The position numbers were made by a program, and so were the translations under genes. Of a stretch of DNA of 64,000 nt, positions 13,045-30,798 are shown in pieces. Position 1 is the first letter of the stretch; the number at the start of each line of letters is the position of its first letter. The notes beneath the pieces are model-generated. The model worked only from the letters and a program-made list of their open reading frames with translations. It was not told where the DNA came from and ran no database searches. Source of the stretch: Escherichia phage IrisVonRoten; sequence record MZ501075. One strand, 5' to 3'.

Positions 13045-13064
13045 TAAATAAGTTAAAAATCTTC

Positions 13065-13093
13065 TTGCTTAAAGCCCTCTAATTTAGTATAAT
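13065..13093 (+). promoter_or_regulatory. T5-type early promoter
   Basis: ttgcttaaagccctctaatttagtataat. Confidence 0.55.
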
Positions 13094-13120
13094 ATTCGTA
13101 TTGAAAGTGAGGAGGGCTTT

Positions 13121-13405
13121 ATGCGAATTTATAACTCAAATTCATTAGGATTTAAACCGTTGAGAAAACGTGCACAATCACCTCGTCAAATAAGAAAGGC
13201 TAATATTGGTGAGCCAGAAACACGTCTTCCACCTCCTCCAGAACAACGTTTAGTTTATCTGGATGAAGAATTAGCTGAACGCGAAGGAAAAGCTCAAGAA
13301 GAGATTGAGCGTAAGAAAATGTGTACTGCTCCAGCCTACTCCAAAGGGGCTTATCAGTATATCTATACAGCCGAAGAGGCTAAAGATGCGGGGCGTAAAA
13401 AATGA
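13121..13405 (+). CDS. hypothetical protein (94 aa)
   Basis: ORF after RBS gaggaggg. Confidence 0.45.
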   Translation: MRIYNSNSLGFKPLRKRAQSPRQIRKANIGEPETRLPPPPEQRLVYLDEELAEREGKAQEEIERKKMCTAPAYSKGAYQYIYTAEEAKDAGRKK

Positions 13406-18603: not shown

Positions 18604-18826
18604 ATATTCATAAATTAGAGAACAGCGAGCCGATTACGCTGAGTGCAGAATCCCAACCGGAGCGCATTGAATAGAGTCGGTGGGTTAGTTGGAAAACTAG
18701 TACACAGGGGGCGGCAATCCCGGTTAGTGGCTAGAACGTGTAAAATGGGGCGTCTGAAACCTCTCCCCTAAACTCTTCTTTAATTTACTGATAGTGGGGT
18801 GTGGAAATCACTTATGTAGTAACACT

Positions 18827-18899
18827 GCCGATCTAGTATAAAACGGTATTATCAAGCCGTAACTGGTGGAAGATGTAGGTTCGAATCCTACGGTCGGTA
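18827..18899 (+). tRNA. tRNA-like gene; canonical acceptor and T-arm, anticodon arm unresolved
   Basis: Acceptor gccgatc/ggtcggt; T-arm gtagg-ttcgaat-cctac. Confidence 0.45.
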
Positions 18900-19401
18900 A
18901 GAACTGGATAACTGGTGCTTTTAATGTAAAAGCTTCCGAGGTTAGTTGCGCACTGCCTAAACCACGCGGTAGTTGGTTCCAGACTAACCAACCAGTCTGC
19001 TGAATAGTTTTATTACGATTTAACTATGTCCAGGCTAAAGAAGAACTTTAGAAGGTATTCTAGGATAGTGAAGTTCTTTCTCCATATCGGAGTAGTTTTT
19101 CAAACTATCCACAAAGTGGGAAATGCTGGCATGAGAGATGCCACTAATGGTGCACAATAGCACAGGTAATTCGCGATAACTCCTGTTGAGTAGCAGCAAA
19201 AAGGTGGGGAGTCATGACCCTAACCTAACCGAGTCCTCAGTATACCGCAGGACATAACCACTAAGTCACCTTGACTTAAACTGGAAAATAATAGACGTTA
19301 CTGTATTTTGTCTTGAAATACTTAATGAGTGAGACTTATGACTCTCCCGGTATCGTCTGTATTTTTAAGAGTTTTTACGAGAGTTCTTAAAAATACTTAA
19401 A

Positions 19402-23103: not shown

Positions 23104-23178
23104 GGTTCTCAAGCTCATATGGTATGAGCACCCGGCTCATAACCGGAAGGTACGTAGGTTCGAATCCTCGGGGAGCCA
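23104..23178 (+). tRNA. tRNA (anticodon CAT; Met or Ile2)
   Basis: Acceptor ggttctc/gggagcc, D-arm gctc..gagc, anticodon loop ctcataa; T-stem imperfect. Confidence 0.55.
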
Positions 23179-23688: not shown

Positions 23689-23762
23689 GGGGGTGTAATC
23701 GAATTGGCATAGGTACTGGACTTAAAATTCAGGTTTTGTGGGTTCGAATCCCACCACCCCTA
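23689..23762 (+). tRNA. tRNA, anticodon tentatively TAA (Leu) but class-I length
   Basis: Acceptor gggggtg/cacccct, T-arm gtggg-ttcgaat-cccac, anticodon loop cttaaaa. Confidence 0.5.
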
Positions 23763-23940
23763 CCAACTTAAGGAAATAAGATGTATAGACATCCACCTCC
23801 GCCAACACGTCGTTCTAGGGAAGTCATCCTCATGGAATTGACGAAAAACTTCAAGGCGACCCTTGAGGATAGAGACTTAGGCACAGATGAAGACGTTGAT
23901 TTCATCTGTAAACTATTAAAAATGAAACTGGAGAAACAAC

Positions 23941-25288: not shown

Positions 25289-25336
25289 AATTACATAAAT
25301 TGAACTGGAGAAGCAACATGACAGAACAAGATAAAC

Positions 25337-25409
25337 CGACCGTTGGCTGAATGGCTTAGGCGAAGGATTGCAAATCCTTTTTATGTGAGTTCAAATCTCA
25401 TGCGGTCGT
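25337..25409 (+). tRNA. tRNA-Cys (anticodon GCA)
   Basis: Acceptor cgaccgt/gcggtcg, anticodon arm aagga-ttgcaaa-tcctt, T-loop ttcaaat. Confidence 0.65.
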
Positions 25410-25414
25410 CCAAT

Positions 25415-25555
25415 TTGCTGAAAGAATTGTTAAATCAATTCAGGCACGCGTAGGAACACTGTCTCCGTAATTGAAAGATGAGGCACGGTTTGGAGAGGTA
25501 TGCCGCTACACGCTACGGTGCTAACTCCGTCTAGGTGAAAATCCTAGTCAGCAAT
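25415..25555 (+). ncRNA. approx. 140-nt tRNA-like structured RNA (possible tRNA with insertion)
   Basis: 5' ttgctga pairs with 3' tcagcaa; T-arm-like ctagg-tgaaaat-cctag adjacent to 3' end. Confidence 0.3.
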
Positions 25556-25564
25556 ATAAATTTA

Positions 25565-25644
25565 GGGTCGTTAGCCAAGCGGTTTGGCGGCGGATTGTTA
25601 ATCCGTGTCGAAAGACAACGTAGGTTCGAATCCTACACGGCCCG
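25565..25644 (+). tRNA. tRNA-Asn (anticodon GTT) with unusually long variable region
   Basis: Acceptor gggtcgt/acggccc, anticodon loop ttgttaa, T-arm gtagg-ttcgaat-cctac. Confidence 0.5.
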
Positions 25645-25749
25645 CCAAATTCTGTGTAGAGTTAAGTAAACCGGTAGCCAACCAGCTATCATTGCTGACA
25701 TCGAATTCAGCCACAGATACCATTTTCATTAATAACTGAGGAAACAAGC

Positions 25750-25935
25750 ATGTCCAAGAATGTGATTGCGCAGCTAGAAGTTCATCGTGATAGTACTATC
25801 AACAATATTGAAGTTGAGAAGAAATACATCGAAGAACTTAAACATGATATACTAGTAAGTCTCAATCGTCTTAATGTACGAAAAGAGTTTCTTAAAGAAC
25901 TTAATGCAGCTATTGAAAAACTCAAAGCTGAGTAA
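25750..25935 (+). CDS. hypothetical protein (61 aa)
   Basis: ORF after RBS tgaggaaa. Confidence 0.4.
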   Translation: MSKNVIAQLEVHRDSTINNIEVEKKYIEELKHDILVSLNRLNVRKEFLKELNAAIEKLKAE

Positions 25936-25944
25936 ATAAATTAT

Positions 25945-26018
25945 GCGACCGGGGCTGGCTTGGTAATGGTACTCCCCTGTCACGGGAGGGAATGTGGGTT
26001 CAAATCCCATCGGTCGCG
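25945..26018 (+). tRNA. tRNA-Asp (anticodon GTC)
   Basis: Acceptor gcgaccg/cggtcgc, anticodon arm ctccc-ctgtcac-gggag, T-loop ttcaaat. Confidence 0.65.
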
Positions 26019-26039
26019 CCAAATAAGGTAGGTTAGCTA

Positions 26040-26198
26040 TGGAACGTAGGGAGTTTACTCCAGAAGAGATAGAGCAGATAAAAGAATCTGCTATGAAAAA
26101 TGCTAGAATATCTCTGTCACTGGAAGGTATCATTATTAGTGATGTAAACTTTGAAAAAATCAAAGCCATAGCTGATGAACTGGAAAAAGTAATTTAAT
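26040..26198 (+). CDS. hypothetical small protein (52 aa)
   Basis: Manual ORF MERREFTPEE...; below track cutoff. Confidence 0.35.
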
Positions 26199-26271
26199 AC
26201 ATCCATAGCTCAATGGTTAGAGCTACCGCCTCTTAAGCGGAGGGTTCTAGGTTCAAGTCCTAGTGGGTGTA
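26199..26271 (+). tRNA. tRNA-Lys (anticodon CTT)
   Basis: Acceptor acatcca/tgggtgt, T-arm ctagg-ttcaagt-cctag, anticodon loop ctcttaa. Confidence 0.6.
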
Positions 26272-26300
26272 CCAAATTAAACTAGCACGAGAAATATGCT

Positions 26301-26648
26301 ATGATTAATGCTAAAGAAGAGTTGTTACTTGCCCTAAAGAATACTAAGTCTGAAGTTAAGTGTATTAAGATAGAATTCGGTTATTATGGGGACAAAGAAG
26401 TTTGGGTATTACCAGTAGGTTATACAGAAAAAGATATTGAAGATTTTCTAAATAACCTAGACTTTAAATATGATTCTGGTTTTGGTGGACAATTGCTTTA
26501 TGGTAACGTATGGTTTACTGATGGAACTTGGTTAGAACGTGGTGAATATGATGGTTCTGAATGGTGGGAGTATAAGACTACGCCAGCAATCCCAGAAGAA
26601 TGCCGAACAATTAATGGTGAAGTAGATAATACTTTACGGTTAAACTAA
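26301..26648 (+). CDS. hypothetical protein (115 aa)
   Basis: ORF track. Confidence 0.45.
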   Translation: MINAKEELLLALKNTKSEVKCIKIEFGYYGDKEVWVLPVGYTEKDIEDFLNNLDFKYDSGFGGQLLYGNVWFTDGTWLERGEYDGSEWWEYKTTPAIPEECRTINGEVDNTLRLN

Positions 26649-26770
26649 TAAAATTTCAGTGCAGAACACGGAGCTAGCAATTCGGAAGTGCTGACTCATG
26701 ATAAGCTGCCTATGTACTTGCTAAGCGGTCGTGTCCAAGACTCGGACTCTTGCACTGAAAACAATCAAAC

Positions 26771-26891
26771 ATTCTAGCGTGGTTGATGGGGAAACCAGCT
26801 TGGCGAGGGCAGAAGCTCGTTCGATTCGAGTGAAAGAATGGTTCTCGTAAGTCCGCACAAGTGATAACAGGTTCGAGTCCTGTCTAGAATG
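26771..26891 (+). ncRNA. approx. 120-nt tRNA-like element (acceptor and T-arm canonical, large internal insertion)
   Basis: 5' attctag pairs 3' ctagaat; T-arm acagg-ttcgagt-cctgt; internal about 50 nt extra. Confidence 0.3.
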
Positions 26892-27040
26892 ACACTATAA
26901 AGTTTACTTATTATGTAGGTTCCGATAGATCGGCGGGTCTATTCTGGCATTTAAGAGAGGTCTCGCAAACTTCTTTGTCAGCCGTGGGGTTGGTAGCCTC
27001 CAGGTGGCCTACACAATAAGTAAATTTATTAAAAATTCAT

Positions 27041-27069
27041 TTGCTATTTTGCTTAATTCTCTGTATAAT
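27041..27069 (+). promoter_or_regulatory. T5-type early promoter
   Basis: ttgctattttgcttaattctctgtataat. Confidence 0.55.
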
Positions 27070-27101
27070 ATATCTTATAAAGTGAAGAGAAGGAAAGCTA
27101 A

Positions 27102-27260
27102 ATGAAGTATAAAATTGCATCAGTATTCATGTGTACTTGGGTTATTCCTATAGTAATAGTAGGGTTTAACATAGATAACTTTTCTATCATAGAAAAGTTA
27201 TTAGGACTAAGTACAGGCTTTACAATGCTAGGATTAAGCATGTTGTGGCTGAAGAAATAA
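27102..27260 (+). CDS. small membrane protein (52 aa)
   Basis: ATG after RBS aaggaaag; hydrophobic. Confidence 0.4.
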   Translation: MKYKIASVFMCTWVIPIVIVGFNIDNFSIIEKLLGLSTGFTMLGLSMLWLKK

Positions 27261-27264
27261 TTTT

Positions 27265-27338
27265 CTCCGATTAGCTCAATTGGCTAGAGTACACCGTTTG
27301 GGGCGGTGGGGTTGAAGGTTCGAGTCCTTCATTGGAGA
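27265..27338 (+). tRNA. tRNA-Pro (anticodon TGG)
   Basis: Acceptor ctccgat/attggag, anticodon arm caccg-tttgggg-cggtg, T-arm gaagg-ttcgagt-ccttc. Confidence 0.65.
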
Positions 27339-27348
27339 CCAAACAATT

Positions 27349-27420
27349 GCGGGTGGGAGGCATAGAGTTCTTCTTAGTCTCATAAGCTAAGTAAGTCCAG
27401 GGCAGTACTGGAACCCGCTA
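27349..27420 (+). ncRNA. tRNA-sized tRNA-like element with non-canonical T-loop and 9-nt anticodon-like loop
   Basis: Acceptor gcgggt/acccgc; loop ggcagta in T position. Confidence 0.3.
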
Positions 27421-27444
27421 CCATTTTAATAGGGGATTTCGAAA

Positions 27445-27609
27445 TGAAAGTATTTCGATTAGTAGTAAGTGATCGACGTTCTAGCAAAGATCGTTCGAAG
27501 TATACCTTAGCCCATTATGGTAAAGATGAAAATGAAGTAATGGCTGAATTTGGTATTAACCATCCTTACTTAAAAGTCTACTCTATTAAGGAAGTTTATG
27601 CTTATTAAC
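27445..27609 (+). CDS. hypothetical small protein (54 aa)
   Basis: Manual ORF after RBS aggggatttcgaaATG. Confidence 0.3.
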
Positions 27610-28071
27610 AGGGTACTTCAAGCCCTGGATCTTCCAAGGCACTTTACTATTACTGACTCCTTAATACGTAGGTATATGGAGAAGTATAACGAAATATCTG
27701 GTAAAGAAGGTAAACTAAAGTCCTCGGAGTTTAAGTTCTGTTATAGAATGGCAGCGTTAAACCTGCTGAAGTATAAAAGGGAGCATAAAATCCCTATAAC
27801 AGAAGGGTTTGTATATGTAATAGGTAATCCAGCATGGCCTGGACTCTATAAGATAGGTATGACAGTAGACGTAAATGAAAGACTGTCTAGTTATCAAACA
27901 TATTCTCCCTATCGTGATTACAAGTTATACCATTTTAGATTCTCCTCGGACAAGAGAAGAACTGAAAAAGCATTACATAGTCTTCTGAAAGACTACAAAG
28001 TATCAGGAGAATGGTTTGAAGTACCTCTGTTAGACGCTTTCAAACTATTAGTAGAGAATTTGGATTGCTAG
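27598..28071 (+). CDS. T5orf172 (MUG113-like) domain protein
   Basis: GFVYVIGNPAWPGLYKIGMT...SGEWFEV pattern. Confidence 0.55.
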   Translation: MLINRVLQALDLPRHFTITDSLIRRYMEKYNEISGKEGKLKSSEFKFCYRMAALNLLKYKREHKIPITEGFVYVIGNPAWPGLYKIGMTVDVNERLSSYQTYSPYRDYKLYHFRFSSDKRRTEKALHSLLKDYKVSGEWFEVPLLDAFKLLVENLDC

Positions 28072-28146
28072 CTCAACTGGATAAGAGTAGCGGACCTTTA
28101 ATCCGTCAGTTCTGGGTTCGAATCCCAGGCAATCCACCAAATTTTT
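28072..28146 (+). tRNA. tRNA-Lys (anticodon TTT)
   Basis: Acceptor ggattgc/gcaatcc, anticodon loop cctttaa, T-arm ctggg-ttcgaat-cccag. Confidence 0.65.
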
Positions 28147-28156
28147 GCTCGGTTAG

Positions 28157-28227
28157 TTTAATGGGAGAACCCCGTCTTTACACGGCGGTTGCGATAGTTC
28201 GATTCTATCACCGAGTACCAAGTACAA
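28157..28227 (+). tRNA. tRNA-Val (anticodon TAC)
   Basis: Acceptor gctcggt/accgagt, anticodon stem ccgtc/ggcgg, loop tttacac. Confidence 0.6.
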
Positions 28228-28245
28228 GAAATTTCAAAAACTCAT

Positions 28246-28274
28246 TTGCTTAATGCTTAATTTCTTGTTATAAT
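28246..28274 (+). promoter_or_regulatory. T5-type promoter driving structured RNA and tRNAs
   Basis: ttgcttaatgcttaatttcttgttataat. Confidence 0.55.
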
Positions 28275-28289
28275 ATTTATATAAATTGA

Positions 28290-28510
28290 TGAGGAGAAAT
28301 CCTCATCATAGTTCACTAAGGTATTAGCTCGACCTAGGACTGGCTGCCAAAAAGCACGATCCCTACGATTTGGGAGAAGTTCTAGATTAGTCCACTAGAT
28401 TCAGCGGCAACTGAATAGTGTATCGGGTTTGCGAGATGACGTAGTTCCTTCCGCTCGAAGCGAAGGTGCTGTAGTTACGCCGAGCTAATAGCCTTAGTAA
28501 ACTAAAGAAT
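28290..28510 (+). ncRNA. ORF-free structured transcript (leader or small RNA)
   Basis: Hairpin gatgaggagaaatcctcatc; long-range pairing attagctcg (28323) with cgagctaat (28480). Confidence 0.3.
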
Positions 28511-28512
28511 TT

Positions 28513-28588
28513 GGGGAATGGGTCTGCATGGAGTGGACACCTCGCTTGCACCGAGGACATCAGAACGGTTCGATTCCGTTATTCTCCA
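28513..28588 (+). tRNA. tRNA-Ala (anticodon TGC)
   Basis: Acceptor ggggaat/attctcc, anticodon arm cctcg-cttgcac-cgagg, T-arm aacgg-ttcgatt-ccgtt. Confidence 0.6.
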
Positions 28589-28596
28589 CCAAATAC

Positions 28597-28670
28597 GCGT
28601 GATTGATGGAATGGGCATACATACCGTCCTTAGAAGTCGGGTTTTGAGGGTTCGAATCCCTTGTCACGCA
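28597..28670 (+). tRNA. tRNA, anticodon tentatively TAG (Leu) but class-I length
   Basis: Acceptor gcgtgat/gtcacgc, T-arm gaggg-ttcgaat-ccctt, anticodon loop cttagaa. Confidence 0.5.
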
Positions 28671-28785
28671 CCAAATTTGATGGTCAGAGTAAATTAAACC
28701 TACTATCTCGGTTGAGCTGTTTTAATGGGTTCGAATCCCAGCGAGGCGTAACTGCCTGGTGTGATAGAGGCATCATCTTATTATT

Positions 28786-28873
28786 GGAAGAGCAAATCGA
28801 ATTGGCGACGAAAACCGCTTGGAAAGCGGCTGACTGGTAAAACGGCTTGAGAGTTCAAATCTCTCCTCTTCCG
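28786..28873 (+). tRNA. tRNA-Ser (anticodon GGA), long variable arm
   Basis: Acceptor ggaagag/ctcttcc, anticodon loop ttggaaa, T-arm gagag-ttcaaat-ctctc. Confidence 0.6.
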
Positions 28874-28895
28874 CCAAACAATTGAGGTAATAATA

Positions 28896-29243
28896 ATGCT
28901 AGCAAAAGATAAAGCTCTAGAGTTTTTAGCATCTTTAGATGAAGATAAGATTATAGATGCAGCTGAAAAAGCTGGAATGCCTGATTTAACATATCTGGAA
29001 CGTGCTATTATTGCTCGTGATAAACTACAGAAAGAATTTGCTATTGCTCAGGAGGAGTTTTATACTCGCTATAACGCTCTTACTAAGCAAATTGAAAATG
29101 AGTGTTCTCATACTTGGGGAGTAACAGAAAACCTAGGTAATGATCACGATGGCTGGTCTAAAGTAAAAATTACCTATTATCATCGTAGGACTTGTAAAAT
29201 CTGTGGAAAAGTAGAAAACTTCACTAGTACGAGTGACTATTAG
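28896..29243 (+). CDS. hypothetical protein with C-terminal CxxC pairs
   Basis: ORF track. Confidence 0.4.
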   Translation: MLAKDKALEFLASLDEDKIIDAAEKAGMPDLTYLERAIIARDKLQKEFAIAQEEFYTRYNALTKQIENECSHTWGVTENLGNDHDGWSKVKITYYHRRTCKICGKVENFTSTSDY

Positions 29244-29256
29244 TATAATAAATACT

Positions 29257-29343
29257 AGAAGATAGGACGTAGTGGTACGTAACTGGTCTTGAAAACCAGC
29301 CCGCTGTAGTGATACGGTGATGGTTCGACTCCATTATCTTCTG
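29257..29343 (+). tRNA. tRNA-Ser (anticodon TGA), long variable arm
   Basis: Acceptor agaagat/atcttct, anticodon arm ctggt-cttgaaa-accag, T-arm gatgg-ttcgact-ccatt. Confidence 0.65.
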
Positions 29344-29362
29344 CCAACTTATAGGGTAATAT

Positions 29363-29545
29363 ATGTCTTTAACGAAAACTGTGAAGGTTACACTAACTGA
29401 TGGCACAGAGTTTAGTGCACAAATAACCTTACTAGAAGACGGTTATTGGGAAGTATATCTTCCACACGTTAATTCTACTGGTAGAGGATGGACTCAACAA
29501 CAGGCTATTGTTGATGCTTTAAATGAGGCTTCCGCTGGTTTATAA
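29363..29545 (+). CDS. hypothetical protein (60 aa)
   Basis: ORF track. Confidence 0.35.
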   Translation: MSLTKTVKVTLTDGTEFSAQITLLEDGYWEVYLPHVNSTGRGWTQQQAIVDALNEASAGL

Positions 29546-29552
29546 AAATTCT

Positions 29553-29683
29553 TGGAATATGCCGGAATTGGTAGACGGGACTGCCCAATAGGTTTACTAG
29601 GAACATCCACTCCTAGAAATATACCTTAAAAGCGGTTGAGTTAAATGGTCTAACTCATGAAGGTTCAAGTCCTTCTATTCCTT
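29553..29683 (+). ncRNA. approx. 130-nt tRNA-like element with Leu-like D-arm and internal insertions
   Basis: D-arm ccggaattggtagacgg; T-arm gaagg-ttcaagt-ccttc; hairpin ctaggaacatccactcctag. Confidence 0.3.
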
Positions 29684-29922
29684 GATACATCAATGGCTCA
29701 AAGTGTAACGGTGCTATTTGATGCGCTTGGAAAGACTTTCCCGACATGCGTTCGGGGGTAAGCTTCTGAGGCTAGAATAGAAGAGTTTCTGAGAGCCGCC
29801 ACAATTGAAAATTCGTACTCGTCTTGAGCTGCGTGCAATAGGAGATAACTTGATTAGTATTCTAGAACATGCTAATTGAGGATGGTTTCGCTAACCCTGC
29901 GAGTTTTCAATTGTGGCTATAT

Positions 29923-29996
29923 CATAATTGGTTAATGATCCTGATTGTGAATCAGGCCTATGTGGATTCGAATTCCACTAGCCACCCCAAATTAAC
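29923..29996 (+). tRNA. tRNA-His (anticodon GTG)
   Basis: Acceptor gtggcta/tagccac, anticodon arm cctga-ttgtgaa-tcagg, T-arm gtgga-ttcgaat-tccac. Confidence 0.65.
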
Positions 29997-30014
29997 TTAA
30001 ATAGGAAATAAAAT

Positions 30015-30215
30015 ATGGCTGATTTCTGCAAACAATGCTCCATTGATATGTGGGGCAGAGATACTGGTGACTTAGCTGGTCTGATTACAGAAGCCGAAGT
30101 CAAAGAAGGTTATGGTGCAGTTGTGGTTTGCGAAGGATGCGGAGTCATTCGAGTAGACCATGAAGGTAAGCGCCTTGAAGAACCTGAGCCAATCGCAACG
30201 GTTCCTGTAGAGTGA
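30015..30215 (+). CDS. hypothetical protein with CxxC pairs (66 aa)
   Basis: ORF track. Confidence 0.35.
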   Translation: MADFCKQCSIDMWGRDTGDLAGLITEAEVKEGYGAVVVCEGCGVIRVDHEGKRLEEPEPIATVPVE

Positions 30216-30216
30216 A

Positions 30217-30798
30217 ATGAAATTAGAGAATTTTAAAGTAATCCCAGAATATCCAGAATACTTAATCTCTCCATACGGAGAGGTTTACTCTACCAAGAGT
30301 AATAAATTACTTACACATCATTTAGGCAGTGCAGGATACCCGTTTGTAACGTTCTATGAACAGGGTAAAAATGTTTCTGTTGTACTGCATAGATTATTGG
30401 CTAGAGTATTTAAAGATTTACCTTCGCTAGAATCTGAACTAGAGGTGGATCACAAAGATAGGAATAAATTGAACTTTGCCCTGGATAATCTAGTTGTCAT
30501 GACCAAGGAAGATCACAGAGTAAAAACTACACTTGAAAGAGGACATATAATAGGTGGTAACAAGTGCCCTTATTGTAGTAAACAAATAAATTCTTCAGCT
30601 AAAACTTGTTTTAATTGTAAACCTAAGAGTAACCCTGCTATTACAGCAGAGCAAATAGAATATTGGGTAATAAATTATTCGTGGGTTAAAGCATCAAAAG
30701 AGCTGGGACTATCTGATAATGGTCTACGTAAACGTTATAAATCCTTAACAGGTAAAGATCCAAAAAGTATTAAGAAGAAGGTTAGCCAAGTCGGTTAA
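30217..30798 (+). CDS. HNH homing-endonuclease-like protein
   Basis: EVDHKDRNKLNFALDNLVVMTKEDH (HNH core) plus zinc-finger CPYC..CFNC. Confidence 0.55.
   Translation: MKLENFKVIPEYPEYLISPYGEVYSTKSNKLLTHHLGSAGYPFVTFYEQGKNVSVVLHRLLARVFKDLPSLESELEVDHKDRNKLNFALDNLVVMTKEDHRVKTTLERGHIIGGNKCPYCSKQINSSAKTCFNCKPKSNPAITAEQIEYWVINYSWVKASKELGLSDNGLRKRYKSLTGKDPKSIKKKVSQVG

What the first reader, a model, noticed from the sequence alone, without database searches (positions are those of the whole stretch)
25415..29926. tRNA island contains several oversized or non-canonical tRNA-like elements
Besides about 27 standard tRNAs, manual folding finds elements with perfect acceptor and T-arm pairing but long insertions (25415-25555, about 140 nt; 26771-26891, about 120 nt; 29553-29683, about 130 nt). 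There is also a tRNA-sized element with an aberrant T-loop (27349-27420), a minihelix-like fragment (28706-28748), and long-range pairings directly upstream of tRNA-His (ccacaattgaaaa at 29809 with ttttcaattgtgg at 29914). These could be processed small RNAs, intron-containing tRNAs, or decayed tRNA genes.
Basis: seen in the sequence. Interest (0 to 1): 0.6.

Follow-up and report, generated by a model that had tools for sequence, protein, structure and literature searches.

The report
Phage T5-type tRNA-like stable RNAs
The tRNA island of this T5-like phage also carries conserved, oversized tRNA-shaped RNA genes with no anticodon; most are obscure T5/BF23 "tRNA-like RNAs of unknown function", one is unannotated anywhere I looked, and what they do is still open.

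Summary
The window is a T5-like phage (Demerecviridae).

- **Known elements.** 26771-26891 and 29553-29683 are "RNA2" and "RNA1", annotated as "tRNA-like RNA with unknown functions" in the BF23 and phage 5 GenBank records. The pairing upstream of tRNA-His is the terminal helix of the annotated stable RNAIII.
- **Unannotated element.** 25415-25555 (E1) has no feature even in the phage 5 expert record (BF23 lacks the element). It occurs in 218 phage records, including unrelated Klebsiella myophages.
- **Structure.** All three oversized elements keep the acceptor stem, D arm and T arm. The anticodon arm is replaced by a long helix capped by a conserved domain. Support is strong: 93-100% of cells paired against 24-47% in slid controls, and 11-18 pairs with compensatory changes. 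None has a conserved anticodon or an encoded CCA, whereas all 12 true tRNAs in the interval encode CCA.
- **What they are not.** They are not intron-containing tRNAs and not free-decaying pseudogenes. RNA1 clearly derives from a class II tRNA-Leu.
- **27349-27420** is a conserved non-standard tRNA(CAU) that replaces T5's tRNA-fMet at the same site.
- **The "minihelix"** is one hairpin of a conserved ~100-nt multi-hairpin RNA.

Function is unknown. tRNA mimicry towards a tRNA-binding factor is my inference, not a result. Verdict: new members of a known but neglected kind.

The parts
25415..25555 (+). E1: oversized tRNA-like RNA with a 7-bp acceptor stem, D arm, 10-bp long helix capped by two hairpins, 8-nt variable region and a T arm with loop UGAAAAU. 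Discriminator is U and no CCA is encoded. It lies between tRNA-Cys and tRNA-Asn.
   Evidence: Fold. Found in 218 phage records, almost all without a feature there. Unannotated even in the phage 5 expert record. Homologs in Mydovirus Klebsiella myophages carry compensatory changes. 100% of cells paired and 11 compensatory pairs. The covariance model R2 hits only these lineages.
25650..25723 (+). RNA3: tRNA-sized tRNA-like RNA with acceptor, T arm, a 6-bp hairpin and no D stem; it ends in ACCA.
Evidence: 98.7% identical to BF23 rna3, 'tRNA-like RNA with unknown functions'. Fold z = -3.3.
26654..26760 (+). Hairpin-closed ~105-nt element (UUCAGUGCA...UGCACUGAA) directly upstream of RNA2.
   Evidence: 97-100% conserved in T5-like phages but unannotated in BF23 and phage 5. 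Fold. No diverged homologs were found, so there is no covariation test.
26770..26894 (+). RNA2: oversized tRNA-like RNA with acceptor, D arm, an 11-bp two-segment long helix, an inner T-arm-like hairpin (CUCG-UUCGAUU-CGAG), a conserved single strand UGAAAGAAUGGUUCUCGUAA and a T arm. No CCA is encoded here.
   Evidence: 96.7% identical to BF23 rna2. Alifold. 93.2% of cells paired and 18 compensatory pairs over six lineages. The core is also present in T4-like Acinetobacter phage 133.
26913..27015 (+). RNAIV: stable RNA closed by a terminal stem.
   Evidence: Mapped from BF23 rnaIV. Fold.
27348..27424 (+). E4: non-standard tRNA(CAU). U1.U72 mismatch, A73, encoded CCA, G8/C14, D loop CAUAGAGU, T loop GGCAGUA. 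It occupies the slot of T5 tRNA-fMet.
   Evidence: Missed by ARAGORN and Rfam. Found in 58 records. Alignment with FBKp34, Aeromonas 4_4572 and T5 tRNA-fMet. 97% of cells paired and the T stem fully covaries. ARAGORN calls the FBKp34 and Aeromonas homologs tRNA-Met.
28322..28493 (+). RNA 2H: stable RNA downstream of the P13b promoter.
   Evidence: Mapped from BF23 rna2H at 98.7% identity.
28678..28775 (+). Conserved multi-hairpin spacer RNA with terminal stem UGAUG/CAUCA and three hairpins.
   Evidence: 100% identical in BF23 but unannotated there. Homologs in DU_PP_V and a Klebsiella T5-like phage show compensatory changes in two hairpins.
28786..28876 (+). tRNA-Ser(GGA), a class II tRNA with encoded CCA.
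   Evidence: Matches BF23 tRNAS2. Only a weak tRNA-Sec hit in Rfam (24 bits). Not called by ARAGORN. Fold.
29551..29694 (+). RNA1: oversized tRNA-Leu-derived RNA with acceptor, canonical D arm (AAUUGGUAGA loop), anticodon stem extended by two more helices, invariant apical loop AACAUCCACU, class II variable arm with invariant loop AAAUGGUCU, and a T arm. No CCA is encoded.
   Evidence: 95.6% identical to BF23 rna1. 97.9% of cells paired and 14 compensatory pairs. The covariance model R1 cross-hits class II tRNAs, and RNA1 aligns to tRNA-Leu.
29695..29801 (+). RNAI: stable RNA.
   Evidence: Mapped from BF23 rnaI. Fold.
29806..29911 (+). RNAIII: stable RNA. In the precursor its terminal helix extends to 20 bp (29798-29817 with 29898-29917) and includes the first bases of tRNA-His.
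   Evidence: Mapped from BF23 rnaIII. Fold z = -2.85 for the RNA and -6.04 for the precursor helix. The annotated ends leave a 2-nt 3' overhang.

Best explanation
The interval holds ordinary tRNA genes plus a set of conserved structured RNA genes that descend from tRNA genes or borrow tRNA modules.

Three of them are oversized tRNA-like RNAs: E1 (25415-25555), RNA2 (26770-26894) and RNA1 (29551-29694). Each keeps the 'top half' of a tRNA, meaning the acceptor stem stacked on the T arm, usually with a D arm. In each, the anticodon arm has been rebuilt into a long helix capped by a family-specific domain with invariant loops. They have no anticodon and no encoded CCA.

Shown here: they are real, conserved and structured; two are the RNA1 and RNA2 already deposited for BF23 and phage 5; RNA1 derives from tRNA-Leu.

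Inferred from established tRNA biology: they are transcribed within the long early transcripts of the tRNA island. RNase P and the 3' tRNA-trimming nucleases release them because these enzymes recognise the acceptor/T-arm stack. For RNAIII, RNase III probably cuts the 20-bp helix. The RNAs then persist because they fold like tRNA.

Most likely function (inference, roughly 30-40%): they act in trans as non-decodable tRNA mimics whose rebuilt arm binds a tRNA-recognising partner. That partner could be a host tRNA-targeting defence nuclease or a tRNA-processing or modifying enzyme. This would complement the phage's nuclease-resistant tRNAs.

The tRNA-sized element at 27348-27424 is a working-looking, non-standard tRNA(CAU) allele that replaces T5's tRNA-fMet.
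For: - Identity and synteny with the annotated BF23/phage 5 features RNA1, RNA2, RNA3, RNAI, RNAIII, RNAIV and RNA 2H.
- Covariation: RNA1 has 14 compensatory pairs, E1 has 11 and RNA2 has 18. 93-100% of cells pair against 24-47% in slid controls, and 0 of 500 shuffles reach the observed values.
- Invariant loops persist while the stems that carry them change.
- Spread across unrelated phage groups, always inside tRNA islands. E1 is in Demerecviridae and in Mydovirus myophages. The RNA2 core is in Demerecviridae and in a T4-like Acinetobacter phage.
- All 12 true tRNAs in 25300-30060 encode CCA and the three oversized RNAs do not. There is no + strand terminator inside the island other than the T arm of RNA1 and a hairpin within RNAIII, which is consistent with polycistronic transcripts.
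- RNA1's covariance model cross-hits class II tRNAs, and RNA1 aligns to phage tRNA-Leu.
- T4 RNA C, a 139-nt stable RNA in the T4 tRNA cluster, folds into the same layout.
- Context: T5 tRNAs are known to counter tRNA-cleaving defences such as PARIS and retron Eco7 (PMC11464382, PMC11555353, PMC10644984).
Against: - I could not reach any expression or end-mapping data. The ends in the GenBank records may be partly predicted.
- No partner is known.
- I found no antisense target above chance in the window.
- The tRNA region of T5 tolerates deletions (cited in PMC11464382). E1 is absent from T5 and BF23, where a T5orf172 nuclease-like ORF fills the slot. Any function is therefore conditional.
- The Acinetobacter phage version of RNA2 lacks the acceptor and D arms, so the tRNA shape is not the conserved essence of that family.
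- The Klebsiella-phage RNA2 encodes CCA, so some members could be aminoacylated.
Confidence: 0.7

Rival explanations
1. Cis-acting processing and insulation elements. On this view the structured spacers exist to guide RNase P, RNase E and RNase III cleavage of the long tRNA-island transcripts, and to stop neighbouring tRNAs and small mRNAs from misfolding. The stable RNAs would be by-products that accumulate only because they are well folded.
For: - They abut tRNAs within 2-10 nt.
- The RNAIII precursor helix sequesters the 5' strand of tRNA-His, and its annotated ends have an RNase III-like 2-nt overhang.
- No terminators separate the genes.
- Presence varies between related phages.
Against: - Punctuation needs only an acceptor/T-arm minihelix. 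It does not explain invariant 10-nt apical loops, a conserved 20-nt single strand, or retention of whole domains at 74-76% overall identity and across phage families.
- E1 sits between two tRNAs that would be processed correctly without it.
Confidence: 0.2
2. Decaying tRNA pseudogenes. On this view they are former tRNA genes that picked up insertions, for example during homing-endonuclease traffic, and are drifting without function.
For: - RNA1 is clearly tRNA-Leu-derived and has lost both anticodon and CCA.
- The island is rich in homing-endonuclease-like ORFs: T5orf172 at 27598-28071 and HNH at 30217-30798.
- One phage (L014) carries a 5'-truncated E1.
Against: - There are 11-18 compensatory pairs per family and almost no broken pairs.
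- Loops are invariant.
- The elements are conserved across genera and phage families.
- BF23/phage 5 annotators list them as RNAs.
Confidence: 0.05
3. Intron-containing tRNAs. On this view the 40-70-nt inserts are removed to give functional tRNAs, for example tRNA-Leu(UAA) from RNA1.
For: In this window, removing 40 nt from RNA1 would leave a perfect CUUAAAA anticodon loop. A related phage (J2-1) has an E4-type tRNA(CAU) gene interrupted after nucleotide 37 by a ~446-nt insert with an endonuclease ORF.
Against: - There is no group I or other intron model hit.
- The inserts are far below group I intron size.
- The heptamer is not conserved in other RNA1 lineages.
- The inserts themselves are the best-conserved parts.
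- No CCA is encoded, although every true tRNA here has one.
- Enterobacteria have no known splicing machinery for such inserts (established knowledge).
Confidence: 0.03
4. Chargeable but non-decoding tRNA-like RNAs. On this view CCA is added by the host enzyme after trimming. The RNA is then aminoacylated by a synthetase that ignores the anticodon (LeuRS, SerRS or AlaRS) and serves as an amino-acid donor, or titrates a synthetase or EF-Tu.
For: - RNA1 keeps a tRNA-Leu-type D arm and a long variable arm.
- The Klebsiella-phage RNA2 encodes UCCA at its 3' end.
- The acceptor/T-arm stack is the substrate of the CCA-adding enzyme (established knowledge).
Against: - The discriminator is U in RNA1 and E1, not the A73 needed by E. 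coli LeuRS (established knowledge).
- There is no G3.U70.
- CCA is absent in most lineages.
- E1's D and T loops lack the canonical elbow nucleotides.
Confidence: 0.05

Closest known systems
RNA1, RNA2 and RNA3 'tRNA-like RNA with unknown functions', and RNAI/III/IV/2H/X 'stable RNA with unknown functions', in the BF23 and phage 5 tRNA-region GenBank records (AJ604530, AJ604531)
   Same: Same genes at the same sites. Window 29551-29694, 26770-26894 and 25650-23 (25650-25723) are 95.6-98.7% identical to rna1, rna2 and rna3. 29806-29911 is rnaIII.
   Different: E1 (25415-25555), the spacer RNA (28678-28775), the hairpin element (26654-26760) and the E4 tRNA(CAU) allele have no feature in those records. 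BF23 and T5 lack E1 altogether. The records give no structure, covariation or distribution.
Phage T4 RNA C (species 1, 139 nt) and RNA D (species 2), stable RNAs in the T4 tRNA cluster
   Same: They are small stable RNAs encoded among phage tRNA genes. RNA C folds with a canonical T arm, a variable-arm-like hairpin and a long arm closed by terminal pairing. Their function is still unknown (PMC3014915, PMC9697503).
   Different: No sequence or covariance-model similarity was detected: models R1 and R2 and nhmmer find nothing in the T4 locus. This is an analogy of layout and context, not shown homology.
tmRNA tRNA-like domain
   Same: An acceptor/T-arm module in which the anticodon arm is replaced by a long helix leading to another domain.
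   Different: No tag reading frame, no pseudoknot array, no G3.U70 and no CCA. ARAGORN reports no tmRNA, and the only Rfam hit is noise (16 bits, elsewhere in the window). Length is 120-145 nt against about 360 nt.
Bacterial Y RNAs (YrlA) and other tRNA mimics
   Same: Non-coding RNAs that imitate the tRNA D/T-arm elbow and are thought to bind tRNA-recognising proteins.
   Different: In YrlA the RNA ends emerge from the Ro-binding stem and the acceptor-like stem is closed. Here the ends form the acceptor stem. There is no Rfam hit and no Ro/Rsr gene nearby. This comparison rests on my own knowledge of YrlA and was not tested further.
Nuclease-resistant phage tRNAs: T5 tRNA-Lys against PARIS, T5 tRNA-Tyr against retron Eco7/PtuAB
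   Same: Same gene island and the same phage group. These are RNAs whose value lies in how host tRNA-targeting nucleases see them (PMC11464382, PMC11555353).
   Different: Those are decoding tRNAs with small sequence changes. The oversized elements cannot decode. A decoy role for them is untested.

Membership tests
Canonical tRNA (Rfam RF00005 / ARAGORN) | Score at or above the family threshold (29 bits), or an ARAGORN call | tested here: not met
   No call for E1, RNA2, E4 or the spacer. The RNA1 3' part scores 23.9 bits.
Canonical tRNA (Rfam RF00005 / ARAGORN) | 5-bp anticodon stem with a 7-nt loop carrying a conserved anticodon | tested here: not met
   In E1, RNA1 and RNA2 it is replaced by 10-12-bp helices with capped domains, and the loop-like heptamer in RNA1 varies between lineages. 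E4 does meet this feature (CUCAUAA).
Canonical tRNA (Rfam RF00005 / ARAGORN) | 3' CCA, encoded in every true tRNA of this phage | tested here: not met
   12 of 12 tRNAs in 25300-30060 encode CCA. E1, RNA2 and RNA1 do not, and E4 does.
T5/BF23 RNA1 and RNA2 tRNA-like RNAs | Sequence identity and the same position in the tRNA island | tested here: met
   95.6% and 96.7% identity, in syntenic positions. E1 has no annotated counterpart.
T5/BF23 RNA1 and RNA2 tRNA-like RNAs | Accumulation as a discrete stable RNA in infected cells | not testable with these tools
   This rests on the depositors' annotation. The primary papers are not in the library.
Group I intron-containing tRNA | Group I catalytic core within the insert | tested here: not met
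   No Intron_gpI or other ribozyme hit at E<=10. The inserts are 40-70 nt.
Group I intron-containing tRNA | Exons that rejoin into a conserved anticodon loop | tested here: not met
   The flanks of the RNA1 insert differ between lineages: CUUAAAA, CUCAUAAA, CUCGACGG, CCGAAAAC.
tmRNA | tRNA-Ala-like acceptor (G3.U70), tag reading frame, pseudoknots | tested here: not met
   ARAGORN reports no tmRNA. The acceptor sequences lack G3.U70.
T4 RNA C / RNA D | Detectable homology to T4 rnaC or rnaD | tested here: not met
   nhmmer and models R1 and R2 give no hit in the T4 locus L027. Only the layout is similar.
Bacterial initiator tRNA-fMet (for E4, 27348-27424) | Mismatch at positions 1:72 | tested here: inconclusive
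   U1.U72 in the window and T5 alleles, but U1-A72 in the FBKp34 and Aeromonas homologs.
Bacterial initiator tRNA-fMet (for E4, 27348-27424) | Three consecutive G:C pairs at the bottom of the anticodon stem | tested here: not met
   The stem is UUAGU/GCUAA. The T5 tRNA-fMet allele lacks them too.
Bacterial initiator tRNA-fMet (for E4, 27348-27424) | Formylation of the charged tRNA | not testable with these tools
   A T5-coded formylatable Met-tRNA is reported in a paper I saw only as a citation (Chen et al. 1975, cited in PMC4810235). Nothing is known for the E4 allele.

The most novel reading that the evidence does not exclude
Phage tRNA islands carry a horizontally exchanged class of 'tRNA-scaffolded effector RNAs'. 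The tRNA top half serves only as a processing and stability cassette. The rebuilt anticodon arm, with its invariant loops, binds and neutralises a host factor, most attractively a tRNA-targeting defence nuclease of the PARIS, Septu, PtuAB, PrrC or VapC kind. E1, RNA1, RNA2 and perhaps T4 RNA C would then be RNA anti-defence decoys. The non-standard tRNA(CAU) family, with its re-engineered elbow (G8/C14, G55, G54/G58), would be a nuclease-evading Met or fMet tRNA.
Probability: 0.2. Interest if true: 0.8.

Novelty: new member of a known kind. Interest (0 to 1): 0.45.

Why it matters
Phage tRNA genes have recently gone from a codon-usage curiosity to proven counter-defence tools, and T5 is the main model for that work. 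The same island holds at least eleven further conserved structured RNAs. Several of them are tRNA-shaped but cannot decode, and none has ever been given a function. The analogous T4 RNAs C and D have also been unexplained for some 50 years.

This analysis shows that they are under strong structural selection. At least two families move between unrelated phage groups, always within tRNA islands. One family (E1), a ~100-nt spacer RNA and a non-standard tRNA(CAU) are missing from the annotation of every record I examined.

That gives concrete, cheap experiments: deletions tested on defence-carrying hosts, pull-downs and end mapping. It also shows that standard tRNA and Rfam pipelines overlook these genes. 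If they turn out to be by-products of processing, the result is still useful for annotating several hundred T5-like genomes, where these stretches are often mis-called as hypothetical proteins.

Tried and rejected
- **Rfam.** Gathering thresholds on the whole window and E<=10 on 18-33 kb found nothing but tRNAs and noise for these elements.
- **Exact-pattern scan of IMG/VR with the E1 17-mer.** It returned T5-like and Mydovirus contigs plus four coding-sequence coincidences.
- **Gapped E1 pattern on metagenome and genome collections.** The 92 and 53 hits were almost all chance matches: about 56 are expected in the genome collection for 19 specified bases and 13 gap lengths. nhmmer kept only T5-like contigs and no bacterial genome. 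These two capped scans were poorly spent.
- **Homology between T4 rnaC/rnaD and the T5 families.** Not detected.
- **BLAST of RNA1 against all complete E. coli genomes.** No match.
- **Antisense targets of the invariant loops in the window.** Only 8-10-mers, as expected by chance.
- **Ideas about the loops.** I considered that the RNA1 apical loop mimics the 16S anti-Shine-Dalgarno sequence and that the E1 purine-rich loop is Shine-Dalgarno-like or CsrA-like. The flanking CC is not conserved in the Klebsiella lineage and the two loops do not pair well with each other, so I dropped both.
- **Alternative RNA2 pairing (CGAGGG with UUCUCG).** It is not kept in the Klebsiella lineage, so I preferred the long-helix model.
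- **Literature.** Searches for primary T5 RNA papers, for Glukhov 2018 and for the T4 genome review found nothing held in the library.
- **Group I intron in the interrupted J2-1 tRNA gene.** No Rfam hit.

Full report
**What the window is.** The 4.7-kb interval matches 620 phage records, all T5-like where named. The best are Salmonella phage S.Inf 5-2 (99.7%), several Escherichia and Salmonella Demerecviridae (92-97%) and BF23 (92.5%). Two of the matching records are expert-annotated tRNA-region entries from the laboratory that sequenced the T5-group tRNA genes: AJ604530 for BF23 and AJ604531 for phage 5. They list tRNAs, promoters and small ORFs. They also list misc_RNA features: RNA1, RNA2 and RNA3 ('tRNA-like RNA with unknown functions'), and RNAI, RNAIII, RNAIV, RNA 2H and RNAX ('stable RNA with unknown functions').

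**Checking the observation.** ARAGORN finds 25 tRNAs in the window and Rfam finds 23 at gathering score.
Even at E<=10, only the 3' third of 29553-29683 gets a sub-threshold tRNA hit of 23.9 bits.
- Two real tRNAs are each missed by one or both tools: 23104-23178 (CAU anticodon, Rfam only) and tRNA-Ser(GGA) at 28786-28876 (annotated in BF23).
- Single-sequence folds of the three oversized elements give acceptor stem, D arm, a long central arm and T arm.

**Mapping to known features.** BLAST against the BF23 locus gives the following.

| Window coordinates | BF23 feature | Identity |
|---|---|---|
| 26770-26894 | RNA2 | 96.7% |
| 29551-29694 | RNA1 | 95.6% |
| 29695-29801 | RNAI | mapped by offset |
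| 29806-29911 | RNAIII | mapped by offset |
| 25650-25723 | RNA3 | 98.7% |
| 26913-27015 | RNAIV | mapped by offset |
| 28322-28493 | RNA 2H | 98.7% |

In the precursor it extends to a 20-bp helix (29798-29817 with 29898-29917; z = -6.0) that includes the first bases of tRNA-His. The annotated RNAIII ends leave a 2-nt 3' overhang. That fits RNase III cutting, or RNase P cutting at tRNA-His. This step is my inference.
- Three things have no counterpart feature in either expert record. The first is E1 (25415-25555). BF23 and T5 carry a T5orf172/MUG113 nuclease-like ORF in that slot, and phage 5 has E1 but leaves it unannotated. The second is the 112-nt spacer that holds the 'minihelix'. The third is a hairpin-closed element at 26654-26760.

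**E1.** E1 occurs in 218 phage records, and almost none has a feature there.
- It is also present, at about 76% identity, in Klebsiella myophages of the genus Mydovirus (Vequintavirinae). There too it lies inside the tRNA island, between two tRNA-Ser genes, and is unannotated.
- Across three lineages, three acceptor pairs, one T-stem pair, the D stem and two pairs of a 10-bp long helix change on both sides with pairing kept. 100% of cells pair against 24-42% in slid controls, and there are 11 compensatory pairs.
- The 3' half of the core (ACGGUU...AUGCCGCUACACGCUACGG) and the T loop UGAAAAU are invariant.
- A covariance model finds E1 only in these lineages.
- Scans of metagenomes and of 185,579 species genomes produced no bacterial copy, but the pattern I used was too loose and most hits were chance.

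**RNA1.** Ten distinct sequences from four lineages, down to 74% identity, support seven helices. 97.9% of cells pair and 14 pairs are compensatory.
- The apical loop AACAUCCACU and the variable-arm loop AAAUGGUCU never change, although the stems that carry them do.
- The covariance model cross-hits class II tRNAs, and RNA1 aligns along its D arm, variable arm and T arm with phage tRNA-Leu. It is therefore a tRNA-Leu derivative with about 49 nt inserted in the anticodon loop.
- In this window the insert is followed by CUUAAAA, a perfect Leu(UAA) loop. Other lineages have unrelated sequences there, so splicing back to a tRNA is not supported.

**RNA2.** Six lineages give 93.2% of cells paired and 18 compensatory pairs.
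- The long helix is capped by a second T-arm-like hairpin (GG-UUCGAUU-CC type) and a conserved 20-nt strand.
- The core, without the acceptor and D arms, also sits between tRNA-Gly and tRNA-Cys of the T4-like Acinetobacter phage 133.
- The Klebsiella T5-like version ends in UCCA.

**The tRNA-sized element (E4, 27348-27424).** It sits exactly where T5, BF23 and phage 5 have tRNA-fMet. It shares that gene's acceptor stem and CUCAUAA loop but has different D and T arms.
- It is present in 58 records. In the loci I examined, each carries either this allele or the T5 allele, never both.
- Homologs exist in a Stephanstirmvirinae Klebsiella myophage, in Aeromonas Lahexavirus phages and in a Pseudoalteromonas phage.
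- The cloverleaf is 97% paired, and four of five T-stem pairs are compensatory.
- The unusual features recur across the family: G8 with C14, D loop CANAGAGY, and T loop KGCARUA with positions 54/58 either U/A or G/G.
- ARAGORN calls the U54/A58 versions tRNA-Met but not the window allele. The Rfam tRNA model misses them all.
- It is therefore a conserved non-standard tRNA(CAU), not a relic. Whether it acts as an initiator cannot be decided here.

**The 'minihelix'.** The hairpin at 28726-28740 (UGGG-UUCGAAU-CCCA) covaries in Pectobacterium and Klebsiella T5-like phages. It is the middle arm of a ~100-nt element closed by UGAUG/CAUCA, with two other hairpins.

**How it probably works.** All 12 true tRNAs in the interval encode CCA, and the oversized elements do not. 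There are no convincing + strand terminators inside the island, and the BF23-type promoters lie upstream of groups of genes. From established knowledge, RNase P and the 3' trimming enzymes recognise the acceptor/T-arm stack. The simplest model is that the tRNA top half acts as a built-in maturation and stability cassette, while the rebuilt arm carries the function.
- Strong selection on loops, spread between unrelated phages within tRNA islands, and dispensability in the laboratory all point to a conditional, trans-acting role.
- T5 tRNAs are documented counters to tRNA-cleaving defences (PMC11464382, PMC11555353, PMC13096335). I therefore consider mimicry or decoy action towards a tRNA-binding factor the most likely function. 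It remains an inference.
- A purely cis role in processing is the main rival.

**Comparison with known things and verdict.** The closest known items are the BF23/phage 5 features themselves, followed by T4 RNA C and RNA D.
- T4 RNA C folds into the same kind of layout but shows no detectable homology. Its function is still called unknown in 2010 and 2022 papers (PMC3014915, PMC9697503).
- tmRNA, Y RNAs and intron-containing tRNAs each fail defining features.
- A 2023 survey of structured RNAs in viruses mentions tRNA-like candidates only in general terms (PMC10690425). I found no paper on these elements in the library.
- The finding is real and correctly located. It is largely a rediscovery of neglected known RNAs, with several unannotated members added (E1, the spacer RNA and the E4 tRNA family) and an open functional question that has become timely.

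Noticed in passing
L029 (Pseudoalteromonas phage J2-1, MF988720): about 601-638 and 1085-1129, with an ORF at 676-1089: An E4-type tRNA(CAU) gene is split after nucleotide 37 of the anticodon loop by a ~446-nt insert that encodes an 'endonuclease'. The 3' part has the same unusual T loop (GGCAGUA) as the window allele, with a compensated T stem. Rfam finds no group I intron. It could be an unrecognised intron or a gene disrupted by a homing endonuclease.
   Followed up: partly
window 28786-28876 and 23104-23178: Two real tRNAs are missed by standard tools. tRNA-Ser(GGA) is not called by ARAGORN and is below threshold in Rfam. A CAU-anticodon tRNA, annotated tRNA-Ile2 in phage 5, is called by Rfam only.
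   Followed up: yes
window about 18617-19401, including 18826-18900: The phage 5 record annotates a 785-nt 'RNAX, stable RNA with unknown functions' directly upstream of tRNA-Arg. In the window this stretch contains the weak tRNA call at 18826-18900 (ARAGORN 'tRNA-Ser ACT', Rfam 34.5 bits). That call lacks an encoded CCA and is marked as a pseudo-tRNA in a T5 record.
   Followed up: no
window 26654-26760: A ~105-nt element closed by an 11-bp stem (UUCAGUGCAAG/CUUGCACUGAA) lies just upstream of RNA2. It is 97-100% conserved in T5-like phages and unannotated in the expert records.
   Followed up: partly
window 27598-28071 and 30217-30798; BF23 L001:1610-2128: Homing-endonuclease-like ORFs are interspersed with the RNA genes: T5orf172/MUG113 domain proteins and an HNH_3+NUMOD4 protein. 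In T5 and BF23 a T5orf172 ORF occupies the E1 slot, and phage NR01 (L014) has a 5'-truncated E1. This suggests the island's mosaic make-up is driven by these mobile genes.
   Followed up: partly
window 23689-23765 and 28597-28673: Both tRNA-Leu genes of this phage are only 77 nt, with a short variable region. Related Klebsiella and other T5-like phages have ~92-94-nt class II tRNA-Leu genes, and RNA1 keeps a class II variable arm.
   Followed up: no
window 29798-29917: The 20-bp precursor helix around RNAIII buries the 5' acceptor strand of tRNA-His (including G-1). The annotated RNAIII ends are staggered by 2 nt, which is an RNase III-like signature, so tRNA-His maturation may depend on this cut.
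   Followed up: partly
L025 about 13058-13184 (Klebsiella phage vB_Kpn_K7_rec17) and many records: The Klebsiella version of RNA2 encodes a 3' UCCA, unlike the T5-type. In many deposited genomes these RNA genes are overlaid by spurious 'hypothetical protein' or even 'excisionase' CDS calls.
   Followed up: no
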